Source: Octopus vulgaris | Lineage: Eukaryota | Reading direction: 5' to 3' | DNA length: 64,000 bases | Assembly: GCA_951406725.2 (NCBI GenBank) | Contig: OX597829.1 | Span: 35,960,001-36,024,000 of the forward strand | Shown: piece by piece, positions 1,860 through 63,718 of the stretch | Position numbering within the stretch: the first letter of the stretch is position 1 | Layout: the number at the start of each line of letters is the position of its first letter | Translations under genes and position numbers: made by a program | The notes under the pieces: model-generated | The model's input: only the letters and a program-made list of their open reading frames with translations | What the model was told of the DNA's origin: nothing | Databases searched by the model: none

Positions 1860-2226
1860 CAGGCTGATTCAAAAGTCCCCATACATAGGAAAAATTGATA
1901 TTTTTATAAGAAACAGTTTATAAGATCCCCTAGATCCCCTGATCTGAGCCCTCTTAATTTCTGTCTTTGGGGACATTTGAAAGGCATGGGGTATCGCGGA
2001 AAGATAAAAGACATAAATCATTTGAAGGAACGTATCACCAACTCATTTGCAGAAGTATCACCAGATGTACTTTTAGGAGTTCACAATGAGTGGAGCAAAT
2101 GTATTGCAATGTGTATTCAAAACAATGGTAACCATATAGAACCTCTTAAAGGAAAAAAAAACTGTTCTTATAAACTGTTTCTTATAAAAAGATAAATTGT
2201 TCCTATGTATGTCGACTTTTGAATCA

Positions 2227-3127: not shown

Positions 3128-3895
3128 TCAAGTCATCCCATAAGTAATGTCTGAACATGTATAAACGCTTTAACAGTATTTTAGAATGTCTAATGGCATC
3201 AAGCCATATATGTATGTATTTGGACATATTTAAACCAATTACATTTCATTTTCTAGTATAATCTGATTGAGATTTCACTAATTATAGCTCTTCAGACACA
3301 AAAGTATCTAAGGGGCATTTGAGGCACATAATGCTTTATAAGTTTAAAAAAGGGAACTCTGCAGCTGAAGCTATTCGAAATATTCACTCGCTTATGGAAA
3401 AGAGTGCCTGAGTGAAAGAACTTTCAGAAGATGGTTTGTGAATTTCAGAAAGGGAAATTTCAGGATTAAAGAAGAGGCTCGAACAGGACATGCGATTGAG
3501 TTTGATGAAAAGTTCCTTTTGGCAGATTTTGTAAAAGATGATGCAGTTTCAGCTGAAGAATTAGCAAGCAAGCTTCGTTCAAGCCATACAACTGTATATA
3601 TCCTTCTTTTATCCACCTTATTCCTCAGGCCTTGCTCCTTCAGATTACCTTTTGTTAATGCATCATTTAGATGCATTAAACCTCAATACAACTGAGGAAG
3701 TCGAAACCGGCATTTCAGAGATCTTCTCTTTGAAACCAACAGTTTTTTCTCTAATGGGATGAAAAAGCTTACGAGTTGATGGAAAAATGGTATAGTGATG
3801 GAAGCAATAATGACGACTAAGTTTCATTAAAATGTAAGATTTGGTCACTTGTTTTCCTTATTTAAAATCCGGACATTACTTATGGAATGACCTGA
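3128..3895 (+). mobile_element. Internally deleted mariner (DD34D) transposon
   Basis: TIRs TCAAGTCATCCCATAAGTAATGTCTGA / TCCGGACATTACTTATGGAATGACCTGA with TA flanks; N-terminal HLRHIMLYKFKKGNSAAEA...RTFRRWFVNFRKGNF joined to YPPYSSGLAPSDYLL (the HPPYSPDLAPSD motif). Confidence 0.92.
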
Positions 3896-4120: not shown

Positions 4121-4548
4121 TCCTTTTACCTTTTCCTTTTACTTGTTTCAGTCATTTGACTGAAGCCATGCTGGAGCACCGCCTTTAGTCGAGCAAATCA
4201 ACCCCAGGACTTATTCTTTGTAAGACTAGTACTTACACTATCGGTCTTTGGCCGAACCGCTAAGTTACGGGGATGTTAACACAACAGCATCGGTTGTCAA
4301 GCGATATTGGGGAACAAATAGAGATACACAAATATATAAACACACACACACACACACACACATACACACATATATATATATACATATACGACGGGCTTCT
4401 TCTAGTTTCCATCTACCAAATCCACTCACAAGTATTTGGGCAGCCCGGGACTATAGTAGAAGACACTTGCCTAAGGTGCCACGCAGCGGGACTGATCCCA
4501 GGACCATGTGGTTGGTAAGCAAGCTACTCACCACACAGCTACTCCTGC
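4121..4548 (-). mobile_element. tRNA-derived SINE family A, full length
   Basis: Minus-strand head with pol III A and B boxes (family consensus TGGCTGTGTGG and GGTTCAGTCCC), internal (TA)n(TG)n, tail GGCGGTGCTCCAGCATGG..CAGTCAAATGACTGAAACAAGTAAAAG; many copies in the window. Confidence 0.9.
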
Positions 4549-5489: not shown

Positions 5490-5839
5490 TGTGGTTAGGG
5501 CAGCGGACTCGCGGTCACAGGATCGCGGTTTCGATTCCCAGACCGGGCGATGTGAGAGTCTATTGAGCTCCAGCAGAGGGTGGTGGCGAACCCTGCAGTA
5601 CTGTTTCACCACAACTTTCTCTCACTCTTTCTTTCTGTTGTACCTGTATTTCAAAGGGGCCAGCCTTGTCACACCCTGTGTCACGCAAAATCTCCCCGAG
5701 AATTACGGTCGGGGTACACGTGTGTGTGTGCAGGGGGGGGGGTGCTCAGCCACTTGCACGTTAATTTCACGAGCAGGCTGTTCTGTTGATCGGATCAACT
5801 GGAACCCTCGTCGTGGTAAGCAGTGGAGTGTCACGACGA

Positions 5840-5842
<3 letters not shown>
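5490..5842 (+). mobile_element. tRNA-derived SINE family C (tail alpha)
   Basis: Head GTGGTTAGGGCAGCGGACTCGCGGTC...GGTTTCGATTCCC; a second copy lies on the minus strand at 57952-58340; ends in (CGA)n. Confidence 0.85.
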
Positions 5843-8504: not shown

Positions 8505-8808
8505 TTGTTTGTTCCTTCTCGAGCTACGCCTGGCTCATAAGGGCCGGTTTCCCGGTTCCTTTGGCGTATAGGTTCCCCACCTGGACGGGACGCCGGTCCG
8601 TCGCAAGTGAGCTGCAAGATGCAGGAGGAAAGAGTGAGAGAAAGTTGTGGCAAAAGTGTCAGCAGAAGTTCGCCATTACTTTCTGCCGGAGCCGCGTGGA
8701 GCTTAGATGTTTCGCTCATAAACACACACATCGCTCGGTCTGAGATTCGAACCTGCGATACCTCGACCGCGAGTCCGCTGCTCTAACCACTAGGCCATGT
8801 GCCTCCAC
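8505..8808 (-). mobile_element. tRNA-derived SINE, family C head and body with tail beta
   Basis: Minus strand GGCACATGGCCTAGTGGTTAGAGCAGCGGACTCGCGGTC...GGTTCGAATCTC, then GGACCGGCGTCCCGTCCAGG...GGGAAACCGGCCCTTATGAGCCAGG. Confidence 0.85.
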
Positions 8809-8912
8809 ATATATGTATGTATGTATATACAATACGGAGCAAATAACTCACGAGAAAAATATTCAAGAAAATATAAATCCTTCAGCTATATGTATATACA
8901 TTTATATACATA

Positions 8913-10744: not shown

Positions 10745-11120
10745 TTCTTTTATTCTTTTACTTGCTTCAGTCATTTGACTGCGCCCATGCTGGAGAACCA
10801 CCTTTAGCCGAACAGATCGACCCCAGGATTTATTCTTTGTAAGCCTAGAACTTATTCTATCGGTGTCTTTTGTCGAACCGCTAGATTACAGGGACACGCC
10901 AACATCGGTGTCAAACAATGGTGTGGGGACAAAAATAGACACACACACACACACACACACACGATTGACTTATTTCAGTTTCGTCTACCAAGTCCACTCA
11001 CAGGGCTTTGGTCGGCCCAAGACTATAGTAGAAGACAATTGCTCAAGGTGTCACGCAATGGGACTGAACCCGGAACCATGTTGTTGGGAATGAAGCTTCT
11101 TACCACACACACACTCCTGC
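10745..11120 (-). mobile_element. SINE family A
   Basis: Aligns over its full length to 4121-4548. Confidence 0.9.
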
Positions 11121-11284
11121 ATTTATATATATTTTTTTTATTTGTGGCTGGGGAATCATTCTCTTTTAATGCCTAATTAATTTAACACACTCACCAGTCT
11201 TATTTCCACTCATTTACATTCAAAAACGATATATATATATATATATACATATATATATGCATATATAAATACACACACACACAC

Positions 11285-11368: not shown

Positions 11369-11571
11369 TGTGACCTCGTGTGTACCGTTGGCGATTTTTT
11401 TCCTCTGTCTTCCCTTCTCTGGATCTTTCCTTCTCCTATGTTTCCGACGAAGATCTCTGCTCGAAACGTTAAACCCTCCTTCTTTCTTTCCTGAGCGTCC
11501 AATAATACTATATTTGTACCACGTCCTCGCGTTGTTGTGTTTTTTTTGTGCTTTCTTGTTTTGATTAACTT
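11369..11571 (+). mobile_element. About 200-bp hammerhead-bearing PLE-like element F1
   Basis: TGTGACCTCGTG...GTTT-CCGACGA-AGATCTCTGCTC-GAAACGTT-AAAC...ATTAACT, flanked by (TA)n; 7 copies in the window. Confidence 0.75.
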
Positions 11572-12297: not shown

Positions 12298-13408
12298 TAC
12301 AAATATCTAGTTAATCACAAAAATATTAAAAAATTTTCCATCTATCTTATTAGTTGTTCTGAGTAACTAACTGTATGAAACCGCACATGAATCACCGTAG
12401 AAAATAAGAAAAGTATAATTGAAAATTTATTGTAAATTATGACAAATTTATTAATATGTGAATTGCATATAAATATCATTTAAAGTGACTTATTTGTATC
12501 CTCTTTCTCAAGGTTGCAGAAAAGAAGAAAAAAAGGAATGAAACAGAGGAAATTATTTTTTTCCTTAGAAAAAGAAAACAGGTTTGGTTTTCTATTTCTT
12601 ATAATGAAACTTGTCCAGGAATAGCAAAATAAAACTATGTCACATTTACGATTAGCGGTGCTTCCATCATGGAAGGGACTGTAAACACGAAATAAACAAA
12701 AGTTACTCTATTTTCTATATGCTCATACAAAACAACTATGTCCAATTTTATATATGAATTTACATATCTGTAAACACCAAACATGACACTAAACATATTA
12801 TACAAAGGTAGGCAACCGTTTTAAGAATGGAGTATGCAGAAGTTTGTTGATTGAATCATAAAGTTACATAATTTTTGAGAGCTGACCCATTATTTGTCGA
12901 CAATTTTAGTGAGATATTGATAGACCTGGCTAAACATAGACATACCATTGCAATAATTTTTTTTGTACAGTTAATCGAATCGTGAATGTGTATGTCTATA
13001 TGTGTGTATAAATACACACATTTATATATACACAAACTATTTTGAATACATGAAAGTATGTGCTACAAGTATCAATATTTAAATCAATTTATACATGTAT
13101 CAAATCAACGTGTGTAAGGTCAATGGAGACACTTTTTTTCACTCAGTTTACCCTTCCTTCTGTTTACTGTCCTCATCCCATTTTGTAGAACAGTGTAGGC
13201 TCGAAATGTCAACCATTTCATCCATTTTACCTCAGGATAGAACTAATACATTTTGCTTGATGTTCCCTCTCTGTCTATCTTATACTTTTTATATTTGTAT
13301 CTTTTTGAACTATGTATACGTATGCGTGTTTGTGAGTGTGTGTGCGTGTATGTATGCGTGTGTGTATCTACATATTTATATATATATATGTTTCTATATG
13401 TGTGTATA

Positions 13409-14746: not shown

Positions 14747-14798
14747 ATATATATACATATATCTATGTGTGTGTATACATGTGGATTATTGGCGATGA

Positions 14799-14973
14799 TT
14801 TTTCCCCCGTCTTCCTTTTCTCTTGGACTTTCTTCTGTCTCCTATTTCTGAAGAAGAGCTTTGCTCGAAACGTTAAACAACCTTTCTTTCCTTCCCTGGT
14901 TGTCTTTTAATACTTTGCATGTACCACGTCCTAGTGTTCTTGTTATTTGGGATTAATTTCTATACATACAAAC

Positions 14974-15053
<80 letters not shown>

Positions 15054-15223
15054 GTTTGTATGTATAGAAATTAATCCCAAATAACAAGAACACTAGGACG
15101 TGGTACATGCAAAGTATTAAAAGACAACCAGGGAAGGAAAGAAAGGTTGTTTAACGTTTCGAGCAAAGCTCTTCTTCAGATATAGGAGACAGAAGAAAGT
15201 CCAAGAGAAAAGGAAGACGGGGA

Positions 15224-15227
<4 letters not shown>
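14799..15227. repeat. Fold-back palindrome of two F1-type elements around (TA)n
   Basis: 14799-14986 is the near-perfect reverse complement of 15041-15227; each arm has CTGAAGA-AGAGCTTTGCTC-GAAACGTT. Confidence 0.93.
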
Positions 15228-16129: not shown

Positions 16130-16313
16130 CTCTTTCTCTATGTATGTATGAATGAATATATGCATGTAGGTAAATATGTATACATATGTATATATATATA
16201 TATTCATCCATATAAACGACTTTTTCTATTCCTGAGCGTTATACCAATACATCTGTTTGTTTTGTACACCACCTGGCTTCGTCTTTTGTTTTTTCGTAAA
16301 CTCTCCCTATATA

Positions 16314-16397
<84 letters not shown>

Positions 16398-16400
<3 letters not shown>

Positions 16401-16628
16401 CTTTACTACCCACAAGGGGCTAAACATAGAGGGGGACAAACAAAGACAGACAAAGGGATTAAGTCGATTACATCGACCCCAGTGCGAAACTGGTACTTAA
16501 TTTATCGACCCCGAAAGGATGAAAGGCAAAGTCGACCTCGGCGGAATTTGAACTCAGAATGTAACGACAGACGAAATAAGGCTACGCATTTCGCCCGGCG
16601 TGCTAACGTTTCTGCCAGCTCGCCGCCT
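16398..16628 (-). mobile_element. tRNA-derived SINE family B
   Basis: Minus strand GGCGGCGAGCTGGCAGAAACGTTAGC...GAGTTCAAATTCC...GCCTTTCATCCTTTCGGGGTCGATAAATTAAGTACCAG. Confidence 0.9.
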
Positions 16629-16785
16629 TTATATATATGAATATATTTATATGCATATATATACTTATATATATATGGATGAATATATATATATATGTAT
16701 GTGTGTGTGTATATATATATATACATATATATATTTATATATTTATATATTTATATATTTATATATATATATATATATATATATT

Positions 16786-17185: not shown

Positions 17186-17189
<4 letters not shown>

Positions 17190-17348
17190 TAAACATGAGG
17201 ACGTGGAACAAATATAGTATTATTGGACGTTCAGAAAAGAAGGAGGGTTTAATGTTTCGAGCGGAGCTCTTCGTCGGAAACATAGGAGAAGGAAAGATCC
17301 AGAGAAGGGAAGACAGAGGGAAAAAATCGCCAACGGTACACAAACGGC
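17186..17348 (-). mobile_element. F1 hammerhead element (internal deletion)
   Basis: Reverse complement of 11369-11571, (TA)n flank. Confidence 0.8.
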
Positions 17349-19378: not shown

Positions 19379-19550
19379 CTGTTGGAAAACAAAGCATATA
19401 AAAAATAATATGCATACGAAATAATATTTTTCGACAAGAACATTTTTATTATAGTTGTTTTGACTTTATACTCTACGTGATATTGTTCTTCAGCCCTTAT
19501 TCACTACAAGTCTACCCTAACTCATTTAGCCTTGAGGTATTAGGAAATTA

Positions 19551-19780
19551 GGCGGCGAGCTTGCAGAAACGTTAGCACGCCGGGCGAAATGCTAAGCGGC
19601 ATTTCGTCTGCCGCTATGTTCTGAGTTCAAATTCCGCCGAGGTCGACTTTGACTTTCATCCTTTCGGGGTCGATTAAATAAGTACCAGGTGCGCACTGGG
19701 GTTGATATAATCAACTTAATCCGTTTGTCTGTCCTTGTTTGTCCCCTCTGTGTGTAGCCCCTTGTGGGTCGTAAAGAAAT
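19551..19780 (+). mobile_element. SINE family B, full length with 16-bp TSD
   Basis: AGGTATTAGGAAATTA at 19535-19550 and 19781-19796. Confidence 0.95.
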
Positions 19781-19946
19781 AGGTATTAGGAAATTATTTG
19801 AGGAGATGATGCCATCGAATGCTTGATGCTGGTATCATTCTTATTTGGTTCTTAACTCTATTATATTAAATATATACAAATACACATAGAGACAGAGAAA
19901 CAAACACTAACACATATATTGATATGAAATAACTTTACATCGATAG

Positions 19947-21055: not shown

Positions 21056-21558
21056 ATCCTTAAATCCTTAAAAATGTTTTAGCCCGAAGGCGGCGGCCAT
21101 GCTGGGGCACCACCGCTGAATGAGTTACACTAATATGTGAATCCATCTCTGATACGTGGCACTTAATCAACAAGGGAGTTCGATGCTACTGCCCGCATCT
21201 GCGTCTCCTGTCTTGAGGTAGGTTCATCTGGGACTCCCGACAAGAAGAGATCCAGTTTAGTTTTAAAGAAACCCACATCCACACCATGTAAGTCTCTCAG
21301 GCATTTAGGGAGGATGTTAAAGAGCTGTGGTCCTCTGAAACCCAAGCTGTTGCAGTATCTGGACCTGTATTTTGATGGTGATGTTGGAATCTTTGACACC
21401 ATGCAGTGGCGCCCCGTTCTGCGGTTGGGGTAACTTTGAATGCCAAAGTTTGGGACAAGACCCTCCAGGATTTTCCAGATGTATATCACCGCATATCTCT
21501 CCCGCCTCCGCTCTAGGGAGAAGAGGTTTAATACCTTCAGTCTTTCCCAGTTGCTGAT
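21056..21558 (-). mobile_element. CR1-group LINE 3' end (ORF2 C-terminus plus 3' UTR)
   Basis: WERLKVLNLFSLERRRERYAVIYIWKILEGLVPN...GPQLFNILPKCLR...FKTKLDLFLSGVPDEP; the UTR ends GGTGCCCCAGCATGGCCGC...(TTTAAGGA)2. Confidence 0.9.
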
Positions 21559-22244: not shown

Positions 22245-22445
22245 GTTTCAAATTTTAGCACAAGGCCAGCAATTTCGGAGGAGGGGTAAATCAATTACAT
22301 TGACCCCCCAATGCTTGAGTGTGGTACTTATTTTATCAACCCCGAAAGGATGAAGGCAAAGTCGACCTCGGCAGAATTTTAACTCTGGACGAAATGCCAC
22401 TAAGCGTTTCGCCCGGCGAGCTAACGATTCTATCAGCTCGCCGTC
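22245..22445 (-). mobile_element. SINE family B (alternative tail); further fragments at 22570-22700 and 22790-22920 on +
   Basis: CCCGAAAGGATGAAGGCAAAGTCGACCTCGGCAGAATT. Confidence 0.8.
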
Positions 22446-23165
22446 TTTAATGCATCCGATAATAATAATGGCAGTAATTTCGTCGATCTTGAAGGGTATG
22501 AAATGAAAATAAGATCAATTGCTATTCAATTTAGTATCTGTTAGTGTTAACATATTATCAAATCTAACCTGAAATTCCGCCCAAATCGACTTTGCCTTTC
22601 ATCCCTTAAGGTCGAGAAGAGAAGCACTAGGGTCGATGCAATCGAATCCTCCCCTCCCACTAAAATTACATGCCCTGTGCAAAAATTTGGAACAATTATT
22701 AATATGCTTGCAGACTATGTGATTTGTCAGAATTGTAAAGTGCCAAGAGAGTATCTTCTGTCATTTGTTACGTGTTTTTACATTCAAAGTTTAAATCTAG
22801 CCGAGGTCAAATTTTTCTCTCCTTCTGATGTCAATAAAATAAAGTAGCAGTCATATATTGAAATCAAATTTAATCGACACATTCCACCTTCAAATTTCTG
22901 GCTTGTGCGGATATTTGAGATAATTATTATGAGCACACAAAATATAGCGAACAAATGTTAAAACGTCAGAGAAGAATCACAAGTTTTATACTAAATGGAC
23001 ATCATTAAAAGATGAGATATCTAAGGAAGTATTCATCTGATGCTTGGAGGCTCTGTCCTCGAATTAAAGAGGTGGTGGACATCTCCGACGCTCATGATAA
23101 TTTAGGTAATTGGAAACTGTACTAAGTGCATGTTGCATGTAACTGCGAGTACGCGTTGAGTGATG

Positions 23166-29474: not shown

Positions 29475-29681
29475 TTCTATTATAGGCAAAAGCCGGACAC
29501 TTGGGAGAGGGGATAGTCGATTACATCGATCCTAGTGTTTCACTGGTACTTAATTTATCGACCCCGAAAGGATGAAATGTAAAGTCTATGTCGGCAGGAT
29601 TTGATCTCAGAACGTAGAGACATGCGTAATACCACCAAGTGTTTCGTCCAGCTAGTTAACAATTCTGCCAGCTTGCCGCCT
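29475..29681 (-). mobile_element. SINE family B (tail variant 2)
   Basis: GTCGATTACATCGA...GACCCCGAAAGGATGAAA...CTGCCAGCTTGCCGCC. Confidence 0.85.
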
Positions 29682-29685
29682 TAAG

Positions 29686-30830: not shown

Positions 30831-31244
<414 letters not shown>

Positions 31245-31489: not shown

Positions 31490-31869
31490 GGTTATAAAAT
31501 GAGATAGGGGTTGAAAATTCAACCCACCATGGGATAATATATATCCAATATACTGCTAGATAGGTACCCAACAAAATTGATACATAGATGTTAGAAATTG
31601 CCAAGCAATCAGTTCATCTATTGTATTAAATGGGTAAGGGTAATAATATTACCGTAAATTAATACTACAAAATTAGAGAATGGAGAAACATATTTAAATC
31701 AATAAAACATCAACTATCCGATGATACTCAATCCATACTTTAATACACCATTACATAGGAGTAAAGGCAATATATAAAATGAAATGAAATGAGATATACA
31801 GTAATAGTAAAAGTAAAAAGATAAAGAGATATAAGTAAAAAATTACAAATACAATATGCAAATAAATCA

Positions 31870-31980
31870 AAACTGACAGCTGTTTCGGCAGTGAGGACAG
31901 TCATACCTCATTTAACCTATAAGCCATAAAGGCAGGTATAAATGAGGCATAACAAAGATGCCCCACGGCCTCTTCAGAGA
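31870..31980 (-). ncRNA. Type-I hammerhead motif (inverted copy)
   Basis: Reverse complement of 32896-33010. Confidence 0.7.
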
Positions 31981-32187
31981 ATTAAATTAGATTTGTTATA
32001 ATAGTGAAAAATATTATATAATCATATACATATAAATATAAAAATATCTGAATTAGTAACATACTGATATTTAAAAATACATTTATATCTTAATTAAATA
32101 TTTTATAGAATGCATGGATGGTTCTTTTTTTGTTATTGAGGCTCAGTTATAATTTTGAAGGACTTAGTGTTAGCATGGTTGCTTCCC

Positions 32188-32556: not shown

Positions 32557-32895
32557 AGTAATTTTTATTAACTTTTATAGCTTTAGAATTTTATGAACTG
32601 TACCACGGATTTAATTATTATTATTTTTCATCTCCATATGTGTTAGCCCTTTTTTTATATAAAAAAAACTATTAGCTAAATATGTATGATATCGGTACTT
32701 ATTAATATTATATATACACTGTTATATATTTTGTTTTATTTTGTTCTGGCTACCTTCCTTTTTGTACAAATGTGTATTATATTATACAAGTGTAGCATTA
32801 TGATGTATAAGTTTTTATATTTTACTTTTTTATATTTTTATATTTATATGTATATGATTATATAATATTTTTCACTATTATAACAAATCTAATTT

Positions 32896-33010
32896 AATTC
32901 TCTGAAGAGGCCGTGGGGCATCTTTGTTAATGCCTCATTTATACCTGCCTTTATGGCTTATAGGTTAAATGAGGTATGACTGTCCTCACTGCCGAAACAG
33001 CTGTCAGTTT
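32896..33010 (+). ncRNA. Type-I hammerhead motif with a 79-nt stem-II extension
   Basis: CUGAAGA-GGC[79 nt including CCUCAUUUA/UAAAUGAGG]GCC-GAAA-CAGCUG-UC; palindromic stem III, GUC site, weak stem I. Confidence 0.7.
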
Positions 33011-33418
33011 TGATTTATTTGCATATTGTATTTGTAATTTTTTACTTATATCTCTTTATCTTTTTACTTTTACTATTACTGTATATCTCATTTCATTTCA
33101 TTTTATATATTGCCTTTACTCCTATGTAATGGTGTATTAAAGTATGGATTGAGTATCATCGGATAGTTGATGTTTTATTGATTTAAATATGTTTCTCCAT
33201 TCTCTAATTTTGTAGTATATATATGTATATATACATGTATATAAATATCTGTATATATATATATATACAGATATATACGTATATATATATGTATAAATAT
33301 ATATATATCTTTAAATATAGATAGTAAATATATATGTATACATATTTATATTTATACATATATATGTATGTATATATGTATATATAAATATATACATGTG
33401 TGGTATATATATATATAT

Positions 33419-39482: not shown

Positions 39483-39562
39483 AATATAGTGTTATTGGAC
39501 GCTCAGGAAAGAAGGAAAGAAGGAGGCTTTAACGTTTCGAGCGGAGCTCATCGTCGGAAAAA
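39483..39562 (-). mobile_element. F1 element fragment
   Basis: TTGGACGCTCAGGAAAG...TTAACGTTTCGAGCGGAGCTCATCGTCGGAAA. Confidence 0.8.
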
Positions 39563-39649
39563 TATAGAGGACCTATACCTGTATCGACGTGTTTGCATTG
39601 TGCAATTCGTATATATATATATATATATATATATGCATGTACATATAGT

Positions 39650-39795
39650 TGAAGTTTAAAGAAAAACAAAAGATGAAGACAGGTGTGTAAACAGCAAGCA
39701 GGTGCATTAGTTGGACGCTTGGGAAAGTGAGAAAGTCTTTTACGTTTCAAGCCTGCGCTCTTCAACAGAAAGGAATAAGGGAAAATAAACAGAGA
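39650..39795 (-). mobile_element. F1-related element F2 with hammerhead variant (partial copy at 16215-16298 on +)
   Basis: 39737-39772 minus: CUUU-CUGUUGA-A-GAGC-GCAG-GCUU-GAAACGUA-AAAG. Confidence 0.65.
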
Positions 39796-39940
39796 CAACA
39801 TACACAACCGCGCGCACACACACTCACACACACACATACACATACAAACACACACACGGACACACACACACACACACACATACAAACACAAACACACGCA
39901 CACACACACACAAACATATATATATTTATATATAGAAATA

Positions 39941-39986
<46 letters not shown>

Positions 39987-40121
39987 TATATATGTAAGTT
40001 TTATGTGTGTGGCTAGGCTTCGGTCATTGGAGTGCCCTTTGTCGTTTGTGTATTCACTCGTGTGTGTGTATGTATATGTGCATGTATGTATATATGTATG
40101 ATTGCATGTACGTATATATAT

Positions 40122-40330
40122 AAAGTTATTCCAAACAAGAAAGCACAAAAAAAAAGACAACAACGCGAGGACGTGGAACAAATATAGTGTTATTGGACGC
40201 TCAGGAAAGAAGGAAAGAAGGATGGTTTAACGTTTCGAGCGGAGCTCTTCGTCGGAAACATAGGAGAAGGAAAGATCCAGAGAAGGGAAGACAGAAGAAA
40301 AAAATCGCCAACGGTACACACGAGGTCACA
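40122..40330 (-). mobile_element. F1 hammerhead element, full length
   Basis: 40225-40259 minus: GUUU-CCGACGA-A-GAGC-UCC-GCUC-GAAACGUU-AAAC. Confidence 0.8.
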
Positions 40331-40351
40331 TTTTGAAAATATATATATATA

Positions 40352-40398
<47 letters not shown>

Positions 40399-45804: not shown

Positions 45805-46486
45805 CTAGCAAAAGTAGCCGTTGTTGCCCGTGTTAAAGATAAGATTTCATTCAAAATTTTTATATATGAGATTTTGCTTGATAAGCATTATGATTAGTGA
45901 TTACATTACTGGCATAACAAATTCTATGAGATCAACAACAATGATATTTCAAATAGAAAACACATAAAAACAAGTTATGATAAATCTTTATATACAACAT
46001 TATGAAGTTTTTTCCAGTGGAGTATAAATGAAAAGTTTTTTTGAGCTTCCAGCACGTGAGCATTCAGCATAGAATTGTCCATGAGAGACGTAAGGATCCT
46101 ATAATCGCAAACCACTGTCCTTGCGATTTGTTGATGGACATTGCAAAACTTTGTCTAATTGGTAACTGTACTCTTTTAAACTGTACTGGTAAATCATCAG
46201 TTATTAATGGAATTCCTGTAATGAATATATTATCGTTTGCTCCAGATCCAGAAAGTATAGAAGATTCTATAACATGTGGCATCGTTTTGTTTACAATAAG
46301 TCTTATTCCACTGTAGGATTTTAGAGGAACTATATTTCTTGGAAATATTATAGGTGCTCCAATTTTAAATGAAGCTTATGAGGAGGTAAATCTGTTGGTT
46401 CCAGTGAGTTTAAAAGTTTAACTGGAGTTCTACTATTTCTAGTTGATCAACAACTGTGTCAAGAGAACTGTATGATTTGTAATTTC

Positions 46487-47820: not shown

Positions 47821-47981
47821 TTATGCCAGTAATGTTAAAAGCACAATAATTATTAGGAAACAATTCGTATAAAAATTTTTTGAATGAAATCTCATGATTA
47901 TCTTTAACTCGGTGTGAAAATATAGGTCGGACATTAGCGTTATGTTATCAAAAAAAACAGTTAACGTTTATGATACTACTA

Positions 47982-48110
47982 TTTCTTTATTACCCACAAG
48001 GGGCTAAAGACAGAGGGGACAAACAAGGACAGACATAGGTATTAGGTCGATTACATCGACCCCAGTACGTAACTGGTACTTAATTTATCGACCCCGAAAG
48101 GATGAAAGGC
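47982..48110 (-). mobile_element. SINE family B 3' half
   Basis: TACCCACAAGGGGCTAAA...GACCCCGAAAGGATGAAAGGC, then an abrupt break. Confidence 0.88.
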
Positions 48111-48462
48111 ACTGACACGGCTCAAACAGTCAAGTCAGCAGCTCGGAAATCTAAGGGCCAGCCCAAGCAAACCGGCTTGCTTAGAGTGGAAAAAATGAAC
48201 TGTCGCATCAACGGCTCGTCACCAACTGCCGTATCAACTGGCCGACACCAACTGACTGCTATATGTTCACTCACTACTAGTTATAAACCTCCACAGAAAA
48301 AAAAAAAATAAAAAGTGCAGCATGCTTTAAAGTCACGTGACAAAAATGAATTATTTTACATTAGAATAATTTATTTACTTATTGATCTTGCAGAACAAGA
48401 GGACAGTATTTTTATCTCGTGTAGTACCATTTGAAATTATATTTAGATTATTCGTTCGTAAC

Positions 48463-53488: not shown

Positions 53489-53684
53489 AAGGCGTTAGCA
53501 CGCCGCGCGAAGTGCTTAGCGTTATTTCGTCTGTCTTTACCCTCTGAGTTCAAATTCCGCCGAGCAGGACCTTGCCTTTCATTCTTTCGGAGCCGATAAA
53601 TTAAGTACCAGCTGCGTAGCGTGGTCGATTTAATATATTGATCCCTTTCTAAAAAATTTTGGACCTTGTGTGCAGAGTAGAAAA
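53489..53684 (+). mobile_element. SINE family B, 5'-truncated, 20-bp TSD
   Basis: GTATATTTAACGT(A/G)TATACG at 53469-53488 and 53685-53704. Confidence 0.9.
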
Positions 53685-57951: not shown

Positions 57952-57954
<3 letters not shown>

Positions 57955-58340
57955 TCGTCGTGGCACTCCACCGCTTACAACGACGAGGGTTCCAGCTGAT
58001 CCGATCAACAGAACAGCCTGCTCATGAAATTAACGTGTAAGTGGCTGAGCACTCCACACACACGTGTATCATTAACGTAGTTCTCGGGGGAGATTCAACG
58101 TGACACAGAGTGTGACAAGGATGGCCCTTTGAAATACAGGTACAACAGTAACAGGAAGAAAGAGTGAGAGGAATTCGTGGTGAAAGAGTACAGCAGTATT
58201 CGCCACAACCCACTGCCGAAGCCTCGAGGAGCTTCAGGTGTCTTTGCACTATTAACACTTACAATGCCCGGTCTGGGAAACGAAACCGCGATCCTGTAAC
58301 TACAAATCCGCTGCCCTTACCAACGGGATATTGCGCCTCC
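57952..58340 (-). mobile_element. SINE family C (tail alpha)
   Basis: Reverse complement of 5490-5842. Confidence 0.85.
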
Positions 58341-58350
58341 ACTTATACGT

Positions 58351-58400
<50 letters not shown>

Positions 58401-58401
<1 letters not shown>

Positions 58402-58615
58402 GTTAATCCAAACAAGAAAACACATAAACAAAAAAAAAAACACAACAACGCGAGGACGTGGAACAAATAAAGTATTATTGGACGCTCAGGAAAGAAGGGA
58501 AGAAGGAGGGTTTAACGTTTCGAGCGGAGCTCTTCGTCGGAAACATAGGAGAAGGAAAGATCCCGAGAAGGGAAGACAGAGGAAAAAAATCGCCAGTGAT
58601 ACTCACGAGGTCACA
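58401..58615 (-). mobile_element. F1 hammerhead element, full length
   Basis: Same boundaries as 11369-11571 and 40122-40330; (TA)n flanks. Confidence 0.8.
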
Positions 58616-60671: not shown

Positions 60672-60800
60672 GTTTTTTTCCAGATTATCTGCTCCTTCCT
60701 CCTTTTCGGTTTCTGACGAAGACACATGCTCGAAACGTCATTTCCATCCTTATTTTTCCATCTAAACCTTTCATTGAGCGTCATTTTAATACATCCACTA
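60672..60800 (+). mobile_element. F1-related element F3 with a canonical hammerhead core
   Basis: CUGACGA-AGACACAUGCUC-GAAACGUC (60713-60739); stems I and II decayed. Confidence 0.55.
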
Positions 60801-60959
60801 TATATCTCTAATTGTTTAAAAAAAATTTTCTTTTGTCTCTCAATCTCTGCTCTCTCTGCTCTCTCTTTCTATTTCTCTCTCTCTCTCTCTCTCTCAGTAT
60901 ATATATACGTATATCTGTGTGTATGTGTGAGTGTGTTCATGTCTGCGTATGTGTTTGTA

Positions 60960-63167: not shown

Positions 63168-63718
<551 letters not shown>

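What the first reader, a model, noticed from the sequence alone, without database searches (positions are those of the whole stretch)
11369..11571. F1: a fixed-boundary 200-bp mobile unit with an ultra-minimal variant hammerhead (CCGACGA core, loopless ACGU stem III)
Seen: 7 copies (11369, 14785, 15066, 17186, 39483, 40122, 58401). The three full copies share the same ends (TGTGACCTCGTG...AACT), lie in or next to (TA)n, have no ORF and no tRNA head, and carry a central 35-nt motif GUUU-CCGACGA-A-GAGC-UCC-GCUC-GAAACGUU-AAAC. Relatives show stem I covariation (GUUU/AAAC versus CUUU/AAAG at 39737), different stem II loops (UCC, UUU, GCAG), cores CUGAAGA, CUGUUGA and CUGACGA, and sites GUU, GUA and GUC. 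Inference: with no loop, stem III could only form between two copies (obligate dimer). The U4C core is shared by several copies, so it was amplified rather than decayed. This may be an undescribed retrozyme-like or solo pseudo-LTR family.
Basis: partly seen in the sequence, partly recalled or inferred. Interest (0 to 1): 0.75.

Follow-up and report, generated by a model that had tools for sequence, protein, structure and literature searches.

The report
Penelope-type repeat with weakened hammerhead
A roughly 205-base repeat scattered in TA microsatellites carries the known loop-less "minimal hammerhead" motif of Penelope-like jumping genes and is likely a protein-less Penelope end-piece; its one unusual trait is that most copies share a core change predicted to weaken self-cutting.

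Summary
The repeat is real. The window holds 5 close copies (3 full-length, same ends), 4 distant relatives with the motif and one more relative without it. The hammerhead descriptor hits 5 sites, against 0 in 200 shuffles. The 'ultra-minimal, loopless ACGU' build is not new: 29 of 56 representative Penelope (PLE) minimal hammerheads in Cervera & de la Pena 2014 have it, with dimer action already proposed. Length (~205 bp), (TA)n targets and solo occurrence match PLE pseudo-LTRs. No PLE ORF link could be shown. Corrections: only 2 copies carry the quoted 35-nt motif intact, and 11369 has a broken stem II. The 14785/15066 pair is one 428-bp palindrome of another subfamily. Covariation is not significant (30/500). 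What is new: in three public contig sets C4 makes up 72-78% of the laid depth and canonical U4 22-28%, far above CpG decay (1-7%). So C4 was amplified. No tandem junction was seen. Best reading: a non-autonomous PLE end-piece, likely copied from uncut RNA, whose ribozyme is likely weakened. Octopus host unverified. Interest 0.3.

The parts
11369..11570 (+). Subfamily A full unit A1, in (TA)n; hammerhead core starts 11444; stem II broken (GAUC/GCUC)
40124..40330 (-). Subfamily A full unit A2; 9 extra non-TA bases at the 5' junction
40225..40259 (-). Intact 35-nt min-hammerhead of A2 (stem I 4 bp, core CCGACGA + extra A, stem II 4 bp, palindromic ACGU, predicted cut after U17 = 40229, unit position 102 of 207)
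58401..58615 (-). Subfamily A full unit A3 with intact motif (core starts 58540), in (TA)n
17187..17342 (-). Subfamily A copy A4: different 5' end, internal 3' deletion, same 3' terminus, ACAU in place of ACGU
39483..39564 (-). Subfamily A fragment A5 (82 bp, cut on both sides, C4 core)
14789..14961 (+). Subfamily B copy, canonical core CUGAAGA, stem I 3 bp; left arm of palindrome 14800-15227
15066..15227 (-). Subfamily B inverted arm, 98.8% to the left arm; tail-to-tail across (TA)n; same event
39647..39800 (-). Distant relative C1, core CUGUUGA (A6U), stem I CUUU/AAAG, ends TTCAACT + TA
16213..16301 (+). 3' half of a C-type relative, without the hammerhead
60677..60827 (+). Distant relative D1, core CUGACGA, site GUC, stems I and II partly broken
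13139..13270 (+). Highly decayed relative E (nhmmer E = 8e-4); only the 3' half of the hammerhead is recognisable

Best explanation
The unit is a dispersed ~205-bp repeat with a minimal hammerhead motif, likely the pseudo-LTR (3' end) of a Penelope-like element that now spreads as a short protein-less copy, likely inserted into (TA)n by a Penelope RT/GIY-YIG protein acting in trans on RNA that the ribozyme has likely left uncut. Steps: (1) SHOWN: many near-identical dispersed copies, a shared 3' end at TA runs, no ORF, and a min-HHR motif in the middle. (2) INFERRED from PMC4209133, PMC8557442 and PMC11167929: a PLE protein nicks AT-rich DNA and reverse-transcribes from a fixed internal RNA site, which gives the fixed 3' end. 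(3) INFERRED: the shared 5' end is inherited from one or a few short master copies. Their upstream (TA)n may let the cDNA anneal to the target (TA)n, and other copies are 5'-shortened. (4) SHOWN as geometry, activity UNTESTED: stem III can form only between two copies, and the cut site lies at position 102 of 207, so cutting a solo transcript would halve the template. (5) SHOWN: the derived C4 core is the majority allele. INFERRED: C4 lowers cleavage and spread either neutrally (ribozyme dispensable) or with a small advantage. Odds: PLE pseudo-LTR origin about 0.8; mobilised as uncut RNA with a weak or idle ribozyme about 0.6.
For: The motif has every trait listed for PLE min-HHRs in PMC4209133: extra base between 9 and 10.1, G10.1-C11.1, palindromic 15.2-16.2, short stem I, U-rich flanks. 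29 of 56 representatives share loopless ACGU and 15 share the GUU site (counted by eye). That paper reports most motifs as single elements 'probably related to truncated PLEs'. pLTRs of 193-218 bp and solo pLTRs are described in PMC3846280. (TA)n is a known PLE target (PMC8557442). 4 of 5 subfamily-A 3' ends abut TA runs, while 23% of the window lies near such runs. The family is very abundant: 5,500, 18,753 and 11,771 contig pieces laid in three runs (totals include hits to the microsatellite flank). U4 is 26.9, 27.8 and 22.4% of depth, against 1.3-7.3% at six other CpG positions, and the partner change G5A is below the 4% listing limit. Three distant relatives (B, C, D) have U4, so C4 is derived. 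In a Poseidon PLE, hammerhead mutants insert normally and unprocessed RNA is the main substrate (PMC11167929). U4C lowers activity in vitro (PMC3088659). O. vulgaris has 30 recently active Penelope families (PMC13282606), relevant only if the host is an octopus.
Against: No PLE ORF was linked. 0 of 148 scanned window frames (147 of 245 candidates plus one added) hit an RT or GIY-YIG Pfam family, protein searches with unit frames found nothing, no genome is held, and loose ends at the 5' boundary were among 500 rows not shown. A shared 5' end in 3 of 5 copies is not what random 5' truncation gives and needs the extra master-copy step. Raw-read run X22, with the same organism label as the best holders, shows almost none of the unit (depth 1-2 in 1.9 Gb), so labels or host range are unclear. 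The U4/C4 shares are summed contig depths laid on a C4 reference and may be biased toward C4. A quarter of the family keeps U4 and most core positions vary by under 4%, which does not exclude a needed ribozyme. The U4C effect was measured in a viroid ribozyme, not in this one.
Confidence: 0.62

Rival explanations
1. Plain 5'-truncated 3' ends of an autonomous Penelope-like element that itself carries C4. The shared 5' end is a truncation hot spot or the natural pLTR border, with no separate non-autonomous family.
For: Most PLE insertions are 5'-truncated single repeats. Depth falls from the motif toward the 5' end, starting about 50 bases before it (40300-09 bin is 31-54% of the 40260-69 bin). 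2 of 5 close copies and all distant relatives are shorter at the 5' side.
Against: 3 of 5 copies start at the same base and none of the 11 pieces in the window extends into coding sequence. The decayed relative at 13139 also begins in the same 5' region after TA-rich DNA (by eye). The depth taper is partly an edge effect and cannot separate the two models.
Confidence: 0.22
2. Non-LTR retrozyme: tandem master arrays are transcribed, dimeric hammerheads cut out unit-length RNA, circles are made and retrotransposed; the dispersed copies are monomers.
For: The size fits 170-400 nt retrozymes (PMC7229834). Monomer-rich retrozyme families related to pLTRs are described (bioRxiv 10.64898/2026.07.22.740005). 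A fixed unit length is expected from a circle. One run guessed to be RNA holds it (X7), but may be DNA.
Against: None of 12 listed joints runs from the unit's one end back to the other (a junction across a long (TA)n could be missed). No head-to-tail pair in the window. The unit is not self-paired (MFE -24.9, z +1.16), unlike retrozyme circles. The hammerhead is the minimal PLE type with a weakening change, and stem II has only 0.24-0.33 predicted probability in the whole unit.
Confidence: 0.1
3. A SINE-like or other repeat unrelated to PLEs in which the hammerhead look is a leftover or chance.
For: No PLE ORF link was found; covariation is not significant; Rfam finds no hammerhead at gathering or E <= 10.
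Against: Descriptor hits 0 of 200 shuffles; the motif is the best-kept part across subfamilies 68-82% alike; there is no tRNA head, B box or TIR.
Confidence: 0.06

Closest known systems
Minimal hammerheads (min-HHR) in pseudo-LTRs of metazoan Penelope-like elements (Cervera & de la Pena 2014, PMC4209133)
   Same: Type I layout, no loop 3, palindromic 15.2-16.2 (ACGU), extra base after A9, G10.1-C11.1, 3-5 bp stem I, mostly single dispersed motifs, dimer needed. The Acropora Neptune example is equally small (4-bp stem II ending GCUC).
   Different: C at core position 4 in most copies (U in 56 of 56 listed representatives, partly because the descriptor required it); 3-nt loop II; no ORF-linked copy shown; no cephalopod among the 56.
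Solo pLTRs / 5'-truncated EN+ PLEs, (TA)n-targeting Neptune type (PMC3846280, PMC8557442)
   Same: About 200 bp, fixed 3' end, AT-microsatellite target with no discernible TSD, palindromic arrangements occur.
   Different: Shared 5' end in 3 of 5 copies; the palindrome here is tail-to-tail, not the usual head-to-head; clade not determined.
Non-LTR retrozymes (Cervera & de la Pena 2020, PMC7229834; Li et al. 2026 bioRxiv)
   Same: Short, non-coding, low GC, type I hammerhead, probably moved by PLE proteins, monomers common.
   Different: No tandem units seen, minimal rather than canonical hammerhead, weak self-pairing, no circles shown.
Natural U4C hammerhead variant of a viroid (cited in Perreault 2011, PMC3088659)
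   Same: Same core substitution.
   Different: There it is a rare variant in a canonical ribozyme with tertiary contacts; here it is the majority allele of a high-copy genomic repeat.

Membership tests
PLE-type minimal hammerhead (min-HHR) | Core CUGANGA ... GAAA-N-N-U-H with stems I and II | tested here: inconclusive
   Met in full by 14848 only. 40255, 58540 and 39557 meet it except U4C. 22-28% of the family's depth has U4.
PLE-type minimal hammerhead (min-HHR) | No loop 3; palindromic 15.2-16.2 | tested here: met
   ACGU in 8 of 9 aligned motifs
PLE-type minimal hammerhead (min-HHR) | Extra base between 9 and 10.1; G10.1-C11.1 pair | tested here: met
   Extra base in 9 of 9; pair GC in 8 and GU in 1
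PLE-type minimal hammerhead (min-HHR) | Compensatory changes in the stems | tested here: inconclusive
   1 of 8 pairs changes on both sides; 30/500 shuffles reach the covariation score
PLE-type minimal hammerhead (min-HHR) | Self-cleavage as a dimer | not testable with these tools
   Needs in vitro assay; the dimer hammerhead fold (-5.7 kcal/mol) is far from the cofold minimum (-22.5) in ViennaRNA
Penelope-like element (EN+) | RT + GIY-YIG ORF flanked by this repeat | tested here: inconclusive
   None in the window; no genome held; searches found nothing; 5' loose ends not shown
Penelope-like element (EN+) | Fixed 3' end, AT-rich or microsatellite target | tested here: met
   4 of 5 subfamily-A copies share the 3' end at TA runs
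Penelope-like element (EN+) | Optional 30-40 bp tail; partial tandems | tested here: inconclusive
   Not seen in the window copies; too few copies
Non-LTR retrozyme | Head-to-tail tandem repeats, each with a hammerhead | tested here: not met
   None in the window; none among 12 listed joints in 4 runs, with the caveat of (TA)n spacers
Non-LTR retrozyme | Highly self-paired unit RNA | tested here: not met
   z +1.16; 184 of 200 shuffles fold as well or better
Non-LTR retrozyme | Abundant circular RNA | not testable with these tools
   Only contigs of a run guessed to be RNA were available
tRNA-derived SINE | tRNA head with A/B boxes | tested here: not met
MITE / solo LTR | Terminal inverted repeats or TG...CA ends | tested here: not met
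   ends are TG...ACT

The most novel reading that the evidence does not exclude
A SINE-like, fixed-length Penelope parasite whose main subfamily rose to very high copy number because a U4C change switched its hammerhead down, so that full-length uncut RNA survives as template and host pre-mRNAs are spared. It would be a natural experiment showing selection against ribozyme activity in solo PLE units, and a class of hammerheads that CUGANGA descriptors miss.
Probability: 0.2. Interest if true: 0.55.

Novelty: new variant of a known kind. Interest (0 to 1): 0.3.

Why it matters
What PLE hammerheads do is open: they may process precursors or merely ride along (PMC8557442), and in vitro insertion does not need them (PMC11167929). 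A young family with C4 and U4 subfamilies side by side gives a ready comparison of copy number, age, genic position and cleavage rate. It also shows that surveys requiring CUGANGA would miss about three quarters of this family. The architecture itself is known, so the gain is modest.

Tried and rejected
Rfam: 0 hits at gathering in the window; 2 chance hits at E 3.5 and 5.2 in 40100-40350. Related loci with flanks: 0 in metagenome contigs, viral contigs and prokaryote genomes. ORF overlap with the unit, as in Poseidon: sense frame against longer proteins, none of 9 candidates; one antisense frame, none; another antisense frame against 1.84 billion representatives, 0. Host check with a LINE-like remnant at 21166-21555: 50 hits, almost all unnamed, no usable taxon. 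Copy number: summed contig depths are not copy numbers, so none is given; the raw-read run did not hold the family. Other CYGNNGA..GAAAC matches (3692, 7555, 30548, 41979, 42343, 53064, 1678) fail the descriptor and were dropped. CpG decay as the source of the U4/C4 mix was rejected. MITE, solo LTR and tRNA-SINE were rejected; Helitron was rejected by eye (no 5' TC, no CTRR with hairpin; recalled criteria). A conserved downstream UGAGCG can pair with the 3' arm of stem II (probability 0.57 and 0.33); this is noted as a possible off-switch, not shown. Earlier scan notes by sequence and by place: none. Lunse et al. 2017 is not held, so its variants could not be checked for U4C; it is known here only through PMC6765202. 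Repbase, Dfam, the O. vulgaris TE library on Zenodo, supplementary file 1 of PMC4209133 and the bioRxiv supplements were not visible and may already hold this family.

Full report
SETTING. The window is AT-rich animal-type DNA (GC 23-40%), with 20,047 of 64,000 bases masked as microsatellite. It holds many short repeats and one Pfam hit above its cut-off among 148 scanned frames, a mariner HTH. No genome is held.

OBSERVATION. BLAST and nhmmer give five subfamily-A copies (90-96% alike in aligned columns), a subfamily-B pair (76-82% to A) and distant relatives at 39647-39800, 60677-60827, 13139-13270 and 16213-16301. Three A copies share the first base, and four share the 3' end before TA runs. 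The quoted 35-nt motif is intact in 2 copies; the finding's own copy has a mismatch in stem II. The B pair is a single 428-bp palindrome that includes its 3' flank. It is therefore one event: fold-back at (TA)n, self-priming as discussed in PMC3846280, or an assembly artefact. The motif is beyond chance (5 hits against 0 in 200 shuffles), but covariation is thin (1 of 8 pairs; 30/500). If the octopus rate of 0.0036 per site per million years applies (quoted in PMC13282606), the full copies diverged about 6-10 million years ago.

WIDER DATA. 20 of 24 listed public runs, from 11 studies, hold the unit or part of it, under four coded organism labels plus two metatranscriptomes with small shares. 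Four of them were laid on 40080-40357 at 82% or more. Three contig sets cover the unit with thousands of pieces. The raw-read run X22 has depth 1-2 on the unit despite sharing label A, which counts against trusting the labels. At core position 4, U makes up 26.9, 27.8 and 22.4% of summed depth, while six other CpG positions vary by 1.3-7.3% and the partner change at G5 is not listed (below 4%). The subfamily-B changes at core position 7 and at the second loop-II base are not listed either, so the U4 share comes from A-like copies. There are thus real C4 and U4 subfamilies. Relatives B, C and D have U4, so C4 is derived and amplified. These shares are contig depths on a C4 reference, not read counts. 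None of the 12 listed joints links one end of the unit to the other. Depth tapers toward the 5' end, which mixes edge effect and 5' shortening. What lies upstream could not be read because those loose ends were not shown.

MECHANISM. The predicted cut lies at position 102 of 207. A solo transcript cut there would lose half the unit, so full-length solo copies need either an uncut template or a circle from tandem masters. Tandem masters were not seen, and the unit is poorly structured. In the one PLE studied with purified protein, reverse transcription starts at fixed internal sites, AT-rich DNA is cut, hammerhead mutants insert normally, uncut RNA is the main substrate, and cleavage needs the protein (PMC11167929). 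U4C lowers activity in vitro in a viroid ribozyme (PMC3088659). I therefore commit to a protein-less PLE end-piece copied in trans from uncut RNA, with a weak or idle ribozyme (0.62). The PLE link, the template and the effect of C4 are all inferred, not shown.

COMPARISON. Cervera & de la Pena 2014 defined a hammerhead without helix III or loop 3 that works only as a dimer, found thousands per genome mostly as single motifs, and measured low activity. In their Fig. S3, 29 of 56 have loopless ACGU, 15 have the GUU site, and all 56 have U4 (counted by eye; their descriptor required the canonical core). So this works like a PLE min-HHR in a pseudo-LTR. Membership in a PLE family is not shown, and two retrozyme features were tested and not met.

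NOVELTY. Searches for hammerhead + Penelope + octopus (5 papers, 4 listed), cephalopod + hammerhead ribozyme (4 papers, 2 listed), hammerhead + U4C (1 paper) and searches showed no description of this family or of a U4C-dominated genomic family. The library lacks most subscription papers, including Lunse 2017, and Repbase and Dfam could not be checked. Earlier scan notes report the same known kind in other genomes (unchecked).

PAPERS SEEN. PMC4209133: parts 1-3 of 4 and supplement file 2, parts 1-2 of 3. bioRxiv 10.64898/2026.07.22.740005: parts 1-3 of 5. PMC11167929: parts 1-2 of 4. PMC13282606: parts 1-2 of 3, supplement list only. PMC3088659: passages and section 8. PMC7229834: passages and section 14. 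PMC8557442, PMC6765202, PMC3846280, PMC8967140, PMC12602865: passages only (the last not used).

VERDICT. Real feature, known architecture, one modestly new trait (amplified U4C core in a short fixed-length unit). New variant of a known kind; interest 0.3.

Noticed in passing
window 14800-15227: 428-bp near-perfect palindrome: two subfamily-B copies tail-to-tail with their 3' flank mirrored around a (TA)n centre; fold-back insertion, local inverted duplication or assembly artefact.
   Followed up: partly
window 40192-40199 (-) and equivalents in relatives: A downstream UGAGCG motif is kept in subfamilies A, C and D and can pair with the 3' arm of stem II (predicted 0.33-0.57), a possible competing fold that keeps the ribozyme off.
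   Followed up: partly
window, 30 intervals such as 4145-4335, 10761-11140, 63510-63644: A cluster of 30 cross-matching ~150-350 bp repeat intervals, probably SINEs; ARAGORN finds no tRNA.
   Followed up: no
window 16399-16629, 19550-19782, 22281-22447, 22572-22645, 29507-29682, 47979-48111, 53493-53634: A second repeat family with 7 intervals.
   Followed up: no
window 5491-5841, 8622-8811, 57953-58345: A third repeat family, 3 copies up to ~390 bp.
   Followed up: no
window 21166-21555 (-): 130-aa frame with 50 unnamed homologues (best 68-76% identity); looks like the C-terminal end of a LINE ORF2 (recalled, no Pfam hit).
   Followed up: partly
window 3369-3692 (+) and 1899-2195 (+): Mariner/Tc1 transposase remnants; the first hits Pfam HTH_48 (E 3e-6), the second is recognised by eye only.
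   Followed up: no
window 46064-46375 (-): Frame resembling the C-terminal part of a PIF1-type helicase, as in Helitrons (by eye; no Pfam hit).
   Followed up: no
window 31665-32023 and 32856-33215: A ~360-bp local duplication; 30861-31214 also shows mirrored sequence around a (TA)n run.
   Followed up: no
run X22: Shares organism label A with the best holders but has almost no reads on the unit, so the label covers different organisms or is wrong for some runs.
   Followed up: no
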